Part shown: positions 25,867-30,240 of the stretch, piece by piece
How positions within the stretch are numbered: position 1 is the first letter of the stretch
How the letters are laid out: every line of letters begins with the position of its first letter
Assembly (NCBI GenBank): GCA_039815015.1
Contig: JBCCAC010000001.1
Span: 1-39,418, forward strand
DNA: 39,418 bases
Direction of reading: 5' to 3'
Origin: Pseudomonadota bacterium
GTDB taxonomy: Bacteria; Pseudomonadota; Alphaproteobacteria; Sphingomonadales; Sphingomonadaceae
The notes under the pieces: generated by a model
What the model was told of the DNA's origin: nothing
The model's database searches: none
What the model saw: the letters and a program-made list of their open reading frames with translations, nothing else
Made by a program: the position numbers and the translations under genes

Positions 25867-26076
25867 TCAGGGCGTCTTTGTGAGGAAGTCGACGCCCTTG
25901 TTCGCCGCCGCGCCGATCCCGGCGGCGAGGCCCATCAGCCAGTATTTCGCCCGCTCAAGTCGGGCGACCCGACGCTCGACGTCGTCGACGTCCCTCGCCG
26001 TGTCGTCCACTTTGGACAGCGCTGCATCGAGCTTGCCTTCGATGCGGCCGATCAGGAGTTCCAGCGGCTCGCTCAT
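25867..26076 (-). CDS. Small coiled-coil + transmembrane lysis-region protein
   Basis: IGRIEGKLD...RVARLER..W..G.AAG.G. Confidence 0.7.
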   Translation of the reverse strand: MSEPLELLIGRIEGKLDAALSKVDDTARDVDDVERRVARLERAKYWLMGLAAGIGAAANKGVDFLTKTP

Positions 26077-28988
26077 GGCAGCAGCGCCGCCGTGCCGAGC
26101 GTGATCCCGAACTCGCTTTCGTAGGAGTTATGGAGCAGCGCGATCTGCGCCGGCGTCAGGACGCTATCGAACAACCGGATCGCGCCGATCCGCATCGGCA
26201 GGCCCCGCCCGAGGTTCTGCTGGTCGATCAGCGCGGCGTTGACGCGCGGCCGATAGCTTGGCGTCGGCGTGTCGAGGGTGAAGGTCTCTTCGATCCCCGC
26301 GAGCTTCGAGAGGTACATCCGCGCGGTCCCGGTCCCACCGACGCCGGCGCTGCGGTCGACGCTGACCGTCAGCGCCTGATAGGTCCGCTGGGTGAAATGC
26401 GCCCGCCCGAGAAACAAGCGAGTGTTGCGTTCGAAGTAGTGCGGCTCGTCCTGGCGGCCCGGCTGCAACGCCGTCCGCATGATCAGATTGTTGACGACGG
26501 AGCCCGACGTCGAGCCGAGCATGGACGTGTCAAACGCCCCCGGCCCGATGGCGTCGCCGGTCTGGAAGAACAACATCGAGATCGTGACGTTGCCAGACGC
26601 GAGCGCATTCAAAAGCGCATTGTAGGCGTAGACGTCGTTCGATCCGACATTGACTTGCTGGAAGCCGTCGACCGTAACGAGCGTCCCGCCCGCCGCGGCT
26701 TCCGACGCCCATGCGCCGCCGTTCGCGCTGTCCACGATCGACGCCGCCGTCGAGCCGGGGTTCTGCGGGTCCATGTTGACCGTCGGCGATTGGAAGGCTG
26801 CGGGCTGGTAAATCGCGGAAGGGCTGAAGCCCCCAGCCCCAACGCGGTTGCGGCCGGCGACGCGCACCTCCTGCGCCGCTGCGCTGGGCAGCGCGCCGAT
26901 ATCGAGGGTTACGCTGAGCCCCGGCGCGACTGGGTCCGCTGTTTCAAGCGTGTCGATCCGCGTGAACGCGCCGGCCGTCCCGTCCTCCCGGTACTCGATC
27001 GCGAACTCCTGCGCGCCCTCCGGCGATACGACGGTCAGATTTGTATCTGCAATCGTCGGCAGCGGCGGGGTCGCGGGGACGGCGCTGTCAAACCGCGGCA
27101 GGCGACGCAGGACGTCCGCCAAGCGACGGCCATTCGCCCGCTGCTCGCCGGTCAGATAATGGCCGGCCGTATTGGACCCGAAGCCGCCGCTGACGAAGGC
27201 GGTGTTGGCGACCTCTAACGCCGTTTCCCGCTGAGCGTCCACGATGTCCGACAGCCCCGGCGTCGCCGCTGCGAAGCCCGGCACGACGGACAGCATCAGG
27301 AACGGGATCGTCGACCATCCAGCGTTCGCACGGATGCGCGTGATCCCGGCCGCAAGATCGGCCTTATAGGTCGCCTTGGCCGTCGCCGCGTTGGCCTCGC
27401 CCTGACACCAAAGGATCGCTTCGGGCTCGGCGTCCGGGAACGCCGCCGCGACCGCCGCGAGCGCGTCCTGCACGTCCTGAAAGCCGCCGCTCGCCGCCGC
27501 CGGGTCCCAATAGCTCCCCGTCCCTACGGCCGCGCCGACGAGCGCGCACTGAACGACGATGAAGCGTTCTCCAGGCCGCAACTCGCCGATGCGCGACAGG
27601 CAATAGGAGAAGGCCGGCGAATAGTACCGCGCCGGCGGGCCGAACGGGCTCGTGAAGCCCGGCCCCTCCATCCGCAGCACGCCCGACTGGCCCGGGCCGG
27701 ACGCAGGCGACGGAAAGGCGAGGATCTGCGGATGGGGGACGTCTATCGTCTCGTCCGCCCCGCCGTCCGGCGAGCCGGAACCGACCATATTCGATTGCCC
27801 GGCGGCCAGGATGATGCGGTCGGCGAGGCTCCCCGCGCCGGCGGCTGCGGCGGAGGCCGCGGCGGCGGACGCCGAGAGCCCAGCGCTCACCGCAGCGGCG
27901 GACGCCGAAATGTCCGCGGCGCGCGCATCCGCGGCTTCCGCCGCTGCATTCGCCGCGCTATCCGCGGCCTTGGCGGCGTGATGCAGTGCGGAAAATGACG
28001 ACGTGCCGGGGACAACGCTGTCTTCGGGGTTGGTGGCCCATTGCTGCGCAAGGTTGCGCGCCGCTTCCGCCGCCGTCTGCGCCGCCTGCGCATCGCCAAC
28101 TGCGGTCGACGCGGCTGTCGCGCTCGCCGCGGCGTTCGTCTCGCTGTTGCCAGCGTTCGCTTCCGACGTGGCCGCCGCAGACGCCTCCGCCACCGCGTTC
28201 GCCGCCGACAGCGCCGCAGCGGACGCAGAGCTGGACGCCGCCGATGCGGACCCTGCGGCTGCGGTCGCGCTGCCCGCCGCCGCAGTCGCCTGCGTCGTCG
28301 CGTCCGTCACGGCCTGCGTCGCGGTGGACAGATCCAGCAGCCGGCGCACGTTCCCGGCCATCGTATCGGCGGGGATGTTCGTGCCGGTGTGCGCAATGAG
28401 GACGCTGTAAATGTCCTGCGTCGCCGGGTCCGTATAGATGTCGCCCGAAAAGTACGCCGTGCCGCTCACGAAGTCGCCGCGGTCGCTCCCCGTCTGCGTG
28501 AGGTTCACAAGGTCGCCGTTTGCATCCCAGCCCAGCGGCGAACCCGCGTTCGGCTCAGGCAAGACCACGCTCGCCGTCTGTGTGTTGACCGCGAGCAGCA
28601 CGGCGCGTTCGGTTTGCTCTTGAAGCTGCTGTAAGCCTTGCGTCAGGCGATCAAGCGCGCGCTCGTTGGTTTCCGCCGGGAACCGCGCACCCTCGACAAA
28701 TTCCGTCAACTGCGTGAGCGACAAGTCGCGAATGATCGTAAGCGTTTGGCCCGACGCCAGCGGGGTCGTGAGCGTGACCGACCCGCCGTTTGGGTCGCCG
28801 TTGCTGTCCGTCGTCGCTGCGACGGTGTAGTCGGCGCCTAAGACAAGCTTCGTCTCGTTCCCGTCCGCCCCAAGGCGGAAGACGCCAAGGTCTGCGGATG
28901 CGAAGAACGCGAACGTGACGGTGAACGTCGTGGATACGCCATCGCCGCTATACGGCCCGGAACGGCGGGCGTCGCTGCCTACGGTCAT
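26073..28988 (-). CDS. Tail fibre/spike with SGNH (sialate O-acetylesterase-like) domain
   Basis: T7 gp17-like N-terminus (YSGDG..T.F...F; ERALDRLT...QQ), Ala-rich stalk, AGQSNM and W.QGE.N motifs, FN3-like and lectin-like C-terminus. Confidence 0.88.
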   Translation of the reverse strand: MTVGSDARRSGPYSGDGVSTTFTVTFAFFASADLGVFRLGADGNETKLVLGADYTVAATTDSNGDPNGGSVTLTTPLASGQTLTIIRDLSLTQLTEFVEGARFPAETNERALDRLTQGLQQLQEQTERAVLLAVNTQTASVVLPEPNAGSPLGWDANGDLVNLTQTGSDRGDFVSGTAYFSGDIYTDPATQDIYSVLIAHTGTNIPADTMAGNVRRLLDLSTATQAVTDATTQATAAAGSATAAAGSASAASSSASAAALSAANAVAEASAAATSEANAGNSETNAAASATAASTAVGDAQAAQTAAEAARNLAQQWATNPEDSVVPGTSSFSALHHAAKAADSAANAAAEAADARAADISASAAAVSAGLSASAAAASAAAAGAGSLADRIILAAGQSNMVGSGSPDGGADETIDVPHPQILAFPSPASGPGQSGVLRMEGPGFTSPFGPPARYYSPAFSYCLSRIGELRPGERFIVVQCALVGAAVGTGSYWDPAAASGGFQDVQDALAAVAAAFPDAEPEAILWCQGEANAATAKATYKADLAAGITRIRANAGWSTIPFLMLSVVPGFAAATPGLSDIVDAQRETALEVANTAFVSGGFGSNTAGHYLTGEQRANGRRLADVLRRLPRFDSAVPATPPLPTIADTNLTVVSPEGAQEFAIEYREDGTAGAFTRIDTLETADPVAPGLSVTLDIGALPSAAAQEVRVAGRNRVGAGGFSPSAIYQPAAFQSPTVNMDPQNPGSTAASIVDSANGGAWASEAAAGGTLVTVDGFQQVNVGSNDVYAYNALLNALASGNVTISMLFFQTGDAIGPGAFDTSMLGSTSGSVVNNLIMRTALQPGRQDEPHYFERNTRLFLGRAHFTQRTYQALTVSVDRSAGVGGTGTARMYLSKLAGIEETFTLDTPTPSYRPRVNAALIDQQNLGRGLPMRIGAIRLFDSVLTPAQIALLHNSYESEFGITLGTAALLP

Positions 28989-28999
28989 CGTTACCCCAT

Positions 29000-29027
29000 A
29001 AAAAAAGCCGCCCGAAACCCGGACGGC
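29000..29027 (-). terminator. Intrinsic terminator upstream of the tail fibre gene
   Basis: GCCGTCCG-GGTTT-CGGGCGGC plus T7 tract. Confidence 0.7.
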
Positions 29028-29029
29028 GC

Positions 29030-29058
29030 TTGAAAAAGGCTACTCAGTAGCCATATCA
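29030..29058 (+). promoter_or_regulatory. Moron promoter with palindromic operator GGCTAC-TCA-GTAGCC
   Basis: TTGAAA at 29030-29035, CATATC about 16 nt later; perfect inverted repeat 29038-29052 in the spacer. Confidence 0.65.
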
Positions 29059-29062
29059 GTGG

Positions 29063-29224
29063 TGTCGATACTGGCAATCAAGCCAGCGACAAGCGGGGAG
29101 GACGAAGATGGCTTTTCGCTTCGTCCTCTCGTTTAGAAGTGAAAAGCGGAGCTGGACCCTCCGCTTTTCGATAGGCTTCTAAATCGAGAGAGGTGGGGGC
29201 CAGGTAGGCCCTCACCGCTCCCCG
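29063..29224 (+). other. Highly structured leader RNA
   Basis: Stems 29063-29091; 29098-29107/29119-29128; 29141-29151/29159-29169; 29132-29139/29176-29183; 29192-29201/29207-29216; 29094-29100/29218-29224. Confidence 0.75.
29108..29182 (+). CDS. 24-aa micro-peptide MAFRFVLSFRSEKRSWTLRFSIGF
   Basis: Strong GGGGAGGA RBS 5 nt upstream of the ATG; TAA at 29180-29182. Confidence 0.6.
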   Translation: MAFRFVLSFRSEKRSWTLRFSIGF

Positions 29225-29241
29225 AAGATAAGGGCGCGGCG

Positions 29242-29670
29242 ATGACACCTCAAGAATTCCAAGACTGGCGCAAGGCGATGAACCTCACGCAAGAAGCCGC
29301 CGCCGAAGCCCTCGACCTGTCCCGCGCGACGATCAAGATGTACGAAGCCGGCAAGCGGCCGGGCAAAGACGCCCGCCCCGTCGCGATCCCCCGCACCGTC
29401 GCCCTCGCCTGCGCCGCGCTGGCCTGCGGCCTAGAGGAAAGCGATGCGGTCCCCCAGGATTGGCCCGAAATCGACTTCAGCGTGGACCACACCTCACATC
29501 GAGCGCTTCAGGCGTCGATCCTCGACAACCTCCATAAGCCCGACGCTGTGCGCTCGCTCGTGGAACGGTGGTTTGAGAGCGAGCGCGAGCTTCTACAGGC
29601 GTTGCTTGACGACGATAAGCGGCTCAGCATGCATCAGATGGTGTTGCTGCATCGGGCCGTTGGGGCCTGA
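29242..29670 (+). CDS. XRE-family HTH protein with C-terminal extension
   Basis: MTPQEFQDWRKAMNLTQEAAAEALDLSRATIKMYEAG...IPRTVALACAAL. Confidence 0.85.
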   Translation: MTPQEFQDWRKAMNLTQEAAAEALDLSRATIKMYEAGKRPGKDARPVAIPRTVALACAALACGLEESDAVPQDWPEIDFSVDHTSHRALQASILDNLHKPDAVRSLVERWFESERELLQALLDDDKRLSMHQMVLLHRAVGA

Positions 29671-29748: not shown

Positions 29749-30240
29749 ATGGTCGATTTCGGCGCGATAACCGGCGCGATCACGAGCCTGAACGCGATCG
29801 CGGAACTCGCGAAGAACATCCGAGAGACGAAGGACGAGAAGCTCGCGAGCGATAAGTTCGGCGAGCTAACGATGGCGCTGCTTGAAGCACTCAAATTCAT
29901 CCGAGCTGCGGAGGATGAATATACTGCGCTTCGTCGCGAACTGGCCGACCTTAAGCAGCAAGTAGCAGAGATAGACACATTTGCTGCTGAGGCCGCGAAC
30001 TATGAACTTACTGATGTTGAGCGAGGCGCGCTGGTCTACGCGCTCAAGGAAACAGCAACACCGATGCAACCACCGCATTGGCTCTGCGCATCCTGTTATC
30101 AGAAGTCCAAGAAAAGCATACTCCAGCGGGATTCGACGCCGATTAAAGATACGCGACAGATTTTTTACCGCTGCAACGAATGTGGGAGCAAAATATCTGT
30201 CGATCGCGCCAACTTCCCCGGCTCTGGGTACATTCCATGA
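29749..30240 (+). CDS. Moron protein: coiled coil + C-terminal Zn ribbon
   Basis: GGGAGG RBS; HWLCASCY...SILQ...CNEC; lower GC. Confidence 0.8.
   Translation: MVDFGAITGAITSLNAIAELAKNIRETKDEKLASDKFGELTMALLEALKFIRAAEDEYTALRRELADLKQQVAEIDTFAAEAANYELTDVERGALVYALKETATPMQPPHWLCASCYQKSKKSILQRDSTPIKDTRQIFYRCNECGSKISVDRANFPGSGYIP

What the first reader, a model, noticed from the sequence alone, without database searches (positions are those of the whole stretch)
29030..29670. Self-contained moron: operator-controlled promoter, switch-like RNA encoding a 24-aa beta-hairpin peptide, then an XRE-HTH gene
Seen: antisense to the late genes, a promoter has a perfect GGCTAC-N3-GTAGCC dyad in its spacer, followed by about 160 nt that is almost fully paired. 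A 10-12-bp stem (29098-29107/29119-29128) buries the strong RBS of the micro-ORF. It competes with 29094-29100/29218-29224 and with 29126-29131/29185-29190, which extends a long hairpin formed by the coding sequence itself. The peptide MAFRFVLSFRSEKRSWTLRFSIGF alternates hydrophobic and basic/polar residues in two strands around a turn. Inference: an unannotated toxin-antitoxin-like or abortive-infection unit, with a translationally locked micro-toxin plus an autoregulating HTH partner, or an RNA-switch attenuator. Late antisense transcription could also silence it. I cannot assign it to a named family.
Basis: partly seen in the sequence, partly recalled or inferred. Interest (0 to 1): 0.75.

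Follow-up and report, generated by a model that had tools for sequence, protein, structure and literature searches.

The report
Phage peptide with triple safety lock
This phage carries a recurring unit found in about 50 related loci: a 24-amino-acid peptide gene whose ribosome site is folded shut, a backward-facing promoter predicted to make a small opposing RNA, and a repressor gene; together they likely form a toxin-antitoxin module that keeps a membrane-damaging peptide switched off.

Summary
All stems and the dyad lie where stated; folding z = -6.3. The same layout occurs in 51 distinct loci, window included, most of them prophage-like: operator in the promoter, 5' hairpin, locked ribosome site, 21-35-aa peptide, stable hairpin, 3' arm, repressor gene. 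It predicts a 40-70-nt antisense RNA over the peptide-HTH spacer. Lock stems covary, the hairpin is tuned for the sense strand, and peptides show purifying selection (pN/pS 0.53). Peptides alternate between cationic beta-hairpin-patterned and hydrophobic helical types. Best reading: a type I toxin-antitoxin module (yonT/SR6-like layout) with its own Aca-like autorepressor. Toxicity, translation and the antisense RNA are untested. No Rfam family matched over its cut-off, no peptide matched Pfam or NCBIfam, and nine literature searches found no description.

The parts
29000..29027 (-). Intrinsic terminator on the minus strand; would stop antisense read-through (and lies 12 nt before the tail-fibre start)
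29030..29058 (+). Sense promoter (-35 TTGAAA; -10 CATATC/ATATCA), predicted
   Evidence: sequence; same register as homologous promoters; not called by scanner
29038..29052 (.). Operator dyad in the promoter spacer, predicted site of the HTH protein
   Evidence: dyad of at least 5/6 pairs in 41 of 50 cassettes against 12 in shuffles; perfect in 23 against 0.6; only copy in the window
29063..29091 (+). 5' hairpin of the mRNA
   Evidence: a hairpin at this position in homologues
29094..29130 (+). Ribosome site and local lock (29096-29107 paired with 29119-29130 of the coding sequence)
   Evidence: native codons lock harder than 149 of 150 synonymous variants
29108..29182 (+). 24-aa cationic peptide with alternating hydrophobic pattern (net +4); candidate toxin
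   Evidence: properties; family-wide pN/pS 0.53
29185..29190 (+). Competitor strand that partly unzips the lock
   Evidence: cost to open the SD falls from 16.0 to 5.8 kcal/mol once it is transcribed
29192..29216 (+). Stable 3' hairpin; predicted barrier to 3' trimming, and terminator hairpin for the antisense RNA
29218..29224 (+). 3' arm pairing with the SD (7 bp here; 10-18 bp and covarying in most homologues)
29180..29219 (-). Predicted antisense RNA (start about 29219; 3' end uncertain, may read on to the terminator at 29000)
   Evidence: inferred from promoter and hairpin
29225..29253 (-). Antisense promoter: -35 TTGAGG (29253-29248), 17 nt, -10 TATCTT (29230-29225), overlapping the HTH start
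29242..29670 (+). XRE-family HTH protein, 142 aa (conserved N-terminal ~63 aa plus a C-terminal extension without a family)

Best explanation
[quoted passage not shown] Shown: layout, stems, covariation, conserved antisense promoter motif, conserved operator. Inferred: (1) the sense promoter makes one mRNA for peptide and HTH, and the HTH represses it through the dyad; (2) the full mRNA is translationally silent for the peptide; (3) the antisense RNA pairs over the spacer, so RNase III would cut the mRNA and remove its protective hairpin, and in the window it also removes the competitor strand and tightens the lock; (4) when fresh antisense RNA stops (prophage loss, host shut-off by another phage), leftover mRNA trimmed back to the hairpin would be translated and depolarise the cell; (5) the phage's own late transcription runs antisense across the unit and would silence it. 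Likely role: prophage maintenance or abortive infection.
For: Antisense promoter motif in 39 of 46 long-range-lock loci (shuffles 3.1), 5 of 5 local-lock loci (0.3), 3 of 97 cassette-less homologues (6.8); its register shifts between subtypes while the 17-nt geometry is kept; two loci found later by DNA pattern alone also carry the -10 box. Long-range lock: 41-45 of 45 loci paired at each of 12 consecutive positions, four positions with four Watson-Crick pair types; 5.5 of 7 spacer pairs kept within loci against 3.7 across loci. Median cost to open the peptide ribosome site 23.6 kcal/mol full-length, 5.1 trimmed (45 loci). 3' hairpin: GNRA/UNCG loop on the sense strand in 40 of 50, on the antisense in 1; at least 4 U in the tail in 36 of 50 antisense, 1 of 50 sense. 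Non-ATG starts in 35 of 50 and near-perfect SD, features listed for txpA and yonT (PMC6562991). In the window, blocking the antisense target raises the SD opening cost from 9.4 to 15.4, as SR4 does to bsrG. Peptides are 21-35 aa, cationic amphipathic or hydrophobic.
Against: No expression, translation or toxicity data. In the long-range subtype the nascent ribosome site is open (median 6.1 kcal/mol; no codon-encoded lock in 4 of 4 tested), unlike aapA1 and hok with their metastable locks, and antisense binding alone would open it (6.9), so the antitoxin role there depends wholly on RNase III decay. In the window the trimmed form is still costly to open through the start codon (12.3). The promoter rule was set after viewing the loci, and loci are related. 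The antisense U-tails are modest and include the reversed stop codon. The window's peptide fits the beta-type profile only weakly (6.6 bits; 58 of 2000 shuffles as high; not among the top 8 of 51,790 small ORFs of the genome). Operator-helix covariation is confounded by kinship (rho 0.47 against 0.35 for the rest of the HTH).
Confidence: 0.6

Rival explanations
1. Aca-like pulse generator: on DNA entry the unrepressed promoter fires, the peptide is made only from nascent transcripts, then the lock and the HTH shut it off. The peptide would be an anti-defence or superinfection-exclusion factor, not a suicide toxin.
For: Cargo-then-repressor order with an inverted repeat in the core promoter is the acr-aca layout (PMC9410906 abstract); HTH and RHH repressors both serve there (PMC13551039) and, by sequence appearance, here (L238). 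Nascent ribosome site open in the long-range subtype.
Against: The window and 3 of 4 other local-lock loci lock during transcription through codon choice, leaving no pulse. Weak starts limit a burst. Does not explain the antisense promoter or the sense-tuned hairpin; 'antisense' and 'toxin' do not occur in the Aca paper searched.
Confidence: 0.17
2. Inverted type I system: the antisense RNA is the trigger. It strips the 3' arm off the ribosome site and cuts away the repressor cistron, switching the peptide on.
For: In 45 long-range loci blocking the antisense target drops the median opening cost from 23.6 to 6.9 kcal/mol; an unpaired linker offers a toehold.
Against: In the window, L026 and L044 the same block tightens the lock, and in L012 and L069 it is neutral. 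A constitutive-looking promoter would leave the toxin always on. 3'-overlapping antisense RNAs of B. subtilis promote decay.
Confidence: 0.12
3. Type II-like pair or anti-repressor: the peptide binds the HTH protein.
For: Co-transcribed; the HTH has a conserved hydrophobic C-terminal helix.
Against: Unrelated peptide classes share one supported HTH clade (L069 with L037/L076/L090/L091, SH-aLRT 96); beta-type peptides occur with other repressor families.
Confidence: 0.06
4. Leader-peptide attenuator that only tunes HTH expression.
For: When the first ribosome site is occupied the 3' arm can fold onto the HTH site (cost rises over 1 kcal/mol in 29 of 45).
Against: No sense-strand terminator tail; the effect is small and follows from any anti-SD near an SD; amphipathic patterns and purifying selection point to a functional peptide.
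Confidence: 0.05

Closest known systems
yonT-yoyJ/SR6 of B. subtilis prophage SPbeta (PMC5848175, abstract; PMC6562991, passages and section 2.4)
   Same: Prophage operon; small toxin with rare start and near-perfect SD; antisense RNA between the toxin and the downstream gene, acting on the 3' UTR via RNase III.
   Different: Downstream gene there is a second toxin, here a repressor with an operator; no sequence match; Gram-positive host; here a 10-18-bp long-range SD lock or a coding-sequence lock.
bsrG/SR4 and txpA/RatA (PMC6562991, passages)
   Same: 3'-overlapping convergent antisense RNA; SR4 lengthens the SD-blocking stem, as predicted in the window.
   Different: No co-transcribed repressor described in the passages seen; helical toxins; antisense overlaps the ORF.
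aapA1/IsoA1 and hok/Sok (PMC5416894, passages)
   Same: Silent full-length mRNA closed by long-distance pairing and activated by 3' processing.
   Different: Their antisense RNAs target the 5' region and metastable hairpins guard the nascent RNA; here the antisense is 3' of the ORF and inside a bicistronic mRNA.
acr-aca operons (PMC9410906 abstract; PMC13551039 abstract and passages)
   Same: Small cargo gene followed by an HTH or RHH repressor; inverted repeat in the core promoter; 5' UTR hairpin.
   Different: No known Acr; cargo is a locked 21-35-aa peptide with a convergent promoter; only generic HTH similarity (Aca3 E 3e-4).
Rfam CC2171 (RF01867)
   Same: Shares the strong SD motif and a GC hairpin (21-26 bits in five relatives).
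   Different: Far below the 75-bit cut-off; the host's own CC2171-like copy has no anti-SD arm. Rejected.

Membership tests
Type I toxin-antitoxin systems | Small (<60 aa) protein gene | tested here: met
   21-35 aa ORFs in 50 of 51 loci; pN/pS 0.53 over 19 partly overlapping pairs
Type I toxin-antitoxin systems | Protein is toxic when expressed | not testable with these tools
   no assay
Type I toxin-antitoxin systems | Cis-encoded antisense RNA gene | tested here: inconclusive
   promoter motif and terminator-like end conserved; transcript not observed
Type I toxin-antitoxin systems | Antisense RNA neutralises the toxin | not testable with these tools
   folding predicts tightening in the window, opening in the long-range subtype
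Type I toxin-antitoxin systems | Toxin ribosome site sequestered in the full mRNA | tested here: met
Type I toxin-antitoxin systems | Membrane toxins have an alpha-helical transmembrane segment (PMC8309996) | tested here: not met
   window peptide GRAVY 0.14, beta moment 2.37 over helix moment 1.54; met by pattern in 9 other loci with hydrophobic peptides
Named type I families (Rfam, Pfam, NCBIfam) | Profile match of RNA or peptide | tested here: not met
   Rfam, no cassette hit over cut-off; no peptide hit
acr-aca operons | Repressor downstream of cargo, inverted repeat in core promoter | tested here: met
acr-aca operons | Repressor binds and represses that promoter | not testable with these tools
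   only covariation, kin-confounded
acr-aca operons | Cargo is an anti-CRISPR or anti-defence protein | not tested
   no Acr library on hand; window peptide has no PHROG or PADLOC hit
Rfam CC2171 | Score over 75 bits | tested here: not met

The most novel reading that the evidence does not exclude
A new class of phage module: ribosomally made, antimicrobial-peptide-like beta-hairpin toxins in an exchangeable slot, controlled by a circuit in which one antisense RNA, whose promoter is written into the repressor's first codons, sets both toxin and repressor, and in the main subtype acts as the trigger that unlocks the toxin instead of the antidote.
Probability: 0.2. Interest if true: 0.9.

Novelty: new variant of a known kind. 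Interest (0 to 1): 0.74.

Why it matters
The review passages seen describe membrane type I toxins as alpha-helical (PMC8309996) and place 3'-overlapping antisense systems in Gram-positive bacteria (PMC8594479). This family would add beta-hairpin-patterned toxins, a 3'-type system in alphaproteobacterial prophages, and a type I system with a dedicated co-transcribed repressor, joining toxin-antitoxin RNA control to Aca-type DNA control. It is only 640 bases, has about 50 natural variants with swapped peptides, operators and locks, and gives direct tests of how prophage maintenance or abortive-infection toxins avoid killing during the phage's own lytic cycle. It also flags micro-ORFs that the profile libraries scanned here do not cover.

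Tried and rejected
Rfam: no cassette hit over cut-off in the window or in the relatives scanned; CC2171 rejected. No peptide match in Pfam or NCBIfam; in PHROGs only L120's peptide had weak hits (holin E 0.04). DNA search of named phages and plasmids with one cassette: no match; three plasmid HTH hits inspected had other upstream genes. No RNA holder listed for the window. The only full-length homologue of the 142-aa HTH (65% identical) came without DNA context; none in 200 same-family genomes at E 1e-10. The HTH C-terminal extension gave no Atlas hit over 0.9. The actinophage relatives of L120's repressor (598 records, 6 inspected) did not show the layout, nor did L271. A pattern for the window's subtype found no new cassette. 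A strict SD/anti-SD pattern hit 7 of 401 same-class genomes, near the reversed-pattern control; one (G178) was read and is a true cassette. The HTH tree is a quick, poorly resolved tree. RNAalifold on the sequence alignment recovered the lock core and 3' hairpin but lost misaligned columns; no covariance model was built. No complex prediction was run.

Full report
Setting. The window is the whole of contig C198 of G000. It is a temperate podovirus-like phage: integrase, S24-peptidase repressor, terminase, portal and a T7 gp14-like protein. The unit lies on the plus strand between an internal-virion-type gene block and the tail-fibre-like gene, both on the minus strand.

Observation. Every pairing and the dyad are as described. 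The leader folds far beyond chance (z -6.3). The sense promoter is not called by the scanner but lies in register with clear promoters in homologues. The dyad alone is common (25 perfect ones in the window).

Conservation. In the first, unbiased search with the HTH domain, 7 of 25 distinct loci had the same upstream layout and one more a decayed copy. Further searches, with alignments enriched for cassette loci and with DNA patterns, gave 152 distinct HTH loci; 48 carry the cassette, window included, and three more with other repressors were added from pattern hits, 51 in all. One has a frameshifted peptide, so 50 enter peptide-based counts. Two further cassettes turned up later (L238; L277). 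Cassette membership was assigned by script plus inspection. Controls are the 97 cassette-less homologues scoring at least 45 bits with at least 60 nt upstream, 52 of them a chromosomal clade.

Two kinds of lock. In 46 loci a near-perfect SD pairs with an arm just before the HTH gene. Among the 45 with a peptide, 41-45 are paired at each of 12 consecutive positions, and the variable spacer positions covary (5.5 of 7 pairs within loci, 3.7 across). Opening the ribosome site costs a median 23.6 kcal/mol in the full leader, 5.1 after trimming to the hairpin and 6.1 in the nascent RNA. In five loci, the window among them, the lock is inside the peptide's own coding sequence. Codon choice builds it: 1 of 150 synonymous variants is as tight in the window; 0, 0, 0 and 5 of 60 in the other four; four long-range loci show no such effect. 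The window also has a 7-bp version of the long-range arm.

The missed part. On the minus strand, overlapping the HTH start, lies a sigma-70-type promoter: 39 of 46 and 5 of 5 cassettes against 3 of 97 controls, one of those the decayed cassette (shuffles 3.1, 0.3, 6.8). Six of the seven misses have TA at the right place with a variant sixth base. In the long-range subtype the -35 box comes from the Phe-Lys codons; in the local subtype the -10 box sits about nine bases further upstream and the -35 comes from the Gln-4 codon (window: TTGAGG-17-TATCTT). The rule was written after seeing the loci, but L238 and L277, found by SD pattern alone, also have the -10 box. The 3' hairpin is more stable on the sense strand in 49 of 50 loci, carries GNRA or UNCG loops there in 40 (antisense 1), and has a U-rich tail only on the antisense side (36 against 1; the tail includes the reversed stop codon). 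So it does not end the sense transcript, probably protects a trimmed one, and probably ends a 40-70-nt antisense RNA. In the window that tail is weak, and read-through to the minus-strand terminator at 29027-29000 would give a 220-nt RNA covering the whole peptide gene.

Operator. A dyad of at least 5/6 pairs lies in the promoter region in 41 of 50 loci (shuffles 12), with a second copy of at least 7/8 upstream in 22 of 39. Loci whose recognition helix has Arg/Gln use GAA- or AAA-type half-sites, most others TAC-type, and other repressor families have other dyads. Kinship explains much of this (rho 0.47 against 0.35), so it is suggestive only.

Peptides. They are 21-35 aa; 35 of 50 start with GTG, TTG or CTG. 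About two thirds are cationic with a strong beta-type moment; others are hydrophobic helices or helix-plus-strand. The helical ones recall DinQ and Ibs (recalled resemblance; no profile hit). Pooled pN/pS is 0.53, with four of 17 computable pairs near or above 1. The window's peptide shares the pattern but homology to the beta group is weak (58 of 2000 shuffles as high). One supported HTH clade holds both lock types and two peptide classes, which points to exchange of parts.

Context. Of 43 loci whose flanks were scanned, 13 had a late-type neighbour (terminase, HNH, tail, late activator or antiterminator); 12 are on the opposite strand. Many sit next to the antiterminator or terminase genes, so late transcription would cross the unit antisense.

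Mechanism. Most likely (0.6) a type I toxin-antitoxin module with autorepression, as set out under Best explanation. The common effect of the antisense RNA in both subtypes would be a duplex cut by RNase III; in the window it also raises the SD opening cost from 9.4 to 15.4 kcal/mol. Against it: in the main subtype the nascent site is open and antisense binding alone would unlock it, which keeps the pulse (0.17) and trigger (0.12) readings alive. Nothing here shows transcription, translation or toxicity.

Known systems and novelty. Closest are yonT-yoyJ/SR6 (PMC5848175, abstract), bsrG/SR4 and txpA/RatA (PMC6562991, passages and section 2.4), aapA1/hok (PMC5416894, passages) and acr-aca operons (PMC9410906 abstract; PMC13551039 abstract and passages). 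T1TAdb passages place 3'-side antisense families in Gram-positive bacteria (PMC8594479); a toxin review calls membrane type I toxins alpha-helical (PMC8309996, passages). Passages of PMC2887945, PMC11951105, PMC11264685 and PMC5737381 showed nothing matching. Nine searches (listings only) found no description of this unit. The library lacks most subscription papers, and the supplement of PMC5737381, which lists RNA motifs, could not be read, so a prior motif entry is not excluded. Verdict: real, conserved, a new variant of a known kind; interest 0.74.

Noticed in passing
window 29749-30240 (+): 163-aa ORF just downstream, coiled-coil plus two Cys pairs, phrog_1244 (E 1e-33, unknown function); no PADLOC hit. 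A second moron gene, not part of the conserved cassette.
   Followed up: partly
window 29000-29027 (-): A minus-strand terminator sits 12 nt before the tail-fibre start (28988), so the late operon would need antitermination here.
   Followed up: no
L238 and L120: Same layout with unrelated repressors: an RHH-like gene (by appearance; no Pfam hit) behind a beta-type peptide, and a phrog_597 DNA-binding gene behind a transmembrane-type peptide. Single examples each; suggests the design reaches beyond Alphaproteobacteria.
   Followed up: partly
L196-L223 and metagenome relatives: A conserved HTH clade related to this repressor occurs in many same-class genomes, without the cassette; function not examined.
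   Followed up: partly
L224 (G000:C336:360-529, -): The host's CC2171-like RNA (45.5 bits, under cut-off) has a strong SD and an 18-codon ORF, so that Rfam 'sRNA' may be a leader-peptide mRNA.
   Followed up: partly
L011 and L144: Decayed cassettes: peptide broken, antisense promoter and HTH kept, as expected if the toxin is lost first.
   Followed up: partly
window 29063-29091 and homologues: The 5' hairpin loop often begins CAAU (e.g. window, L031, L116, L277); it could be a protein-binding site, as for Aca1/Aca2 RNA motifs.
   Followed up: no
window 26073-28988 (-): 971-aa tail-fibre-like protein with a SASA acetylesterase domain, a candidate polysaccharide-deacetylating receptor-binding protein.
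   Followed up: no
L001/L043, L030, L122: tRNA genes lie on the opposite strand just upstream of the cassette.
   Followed up: no
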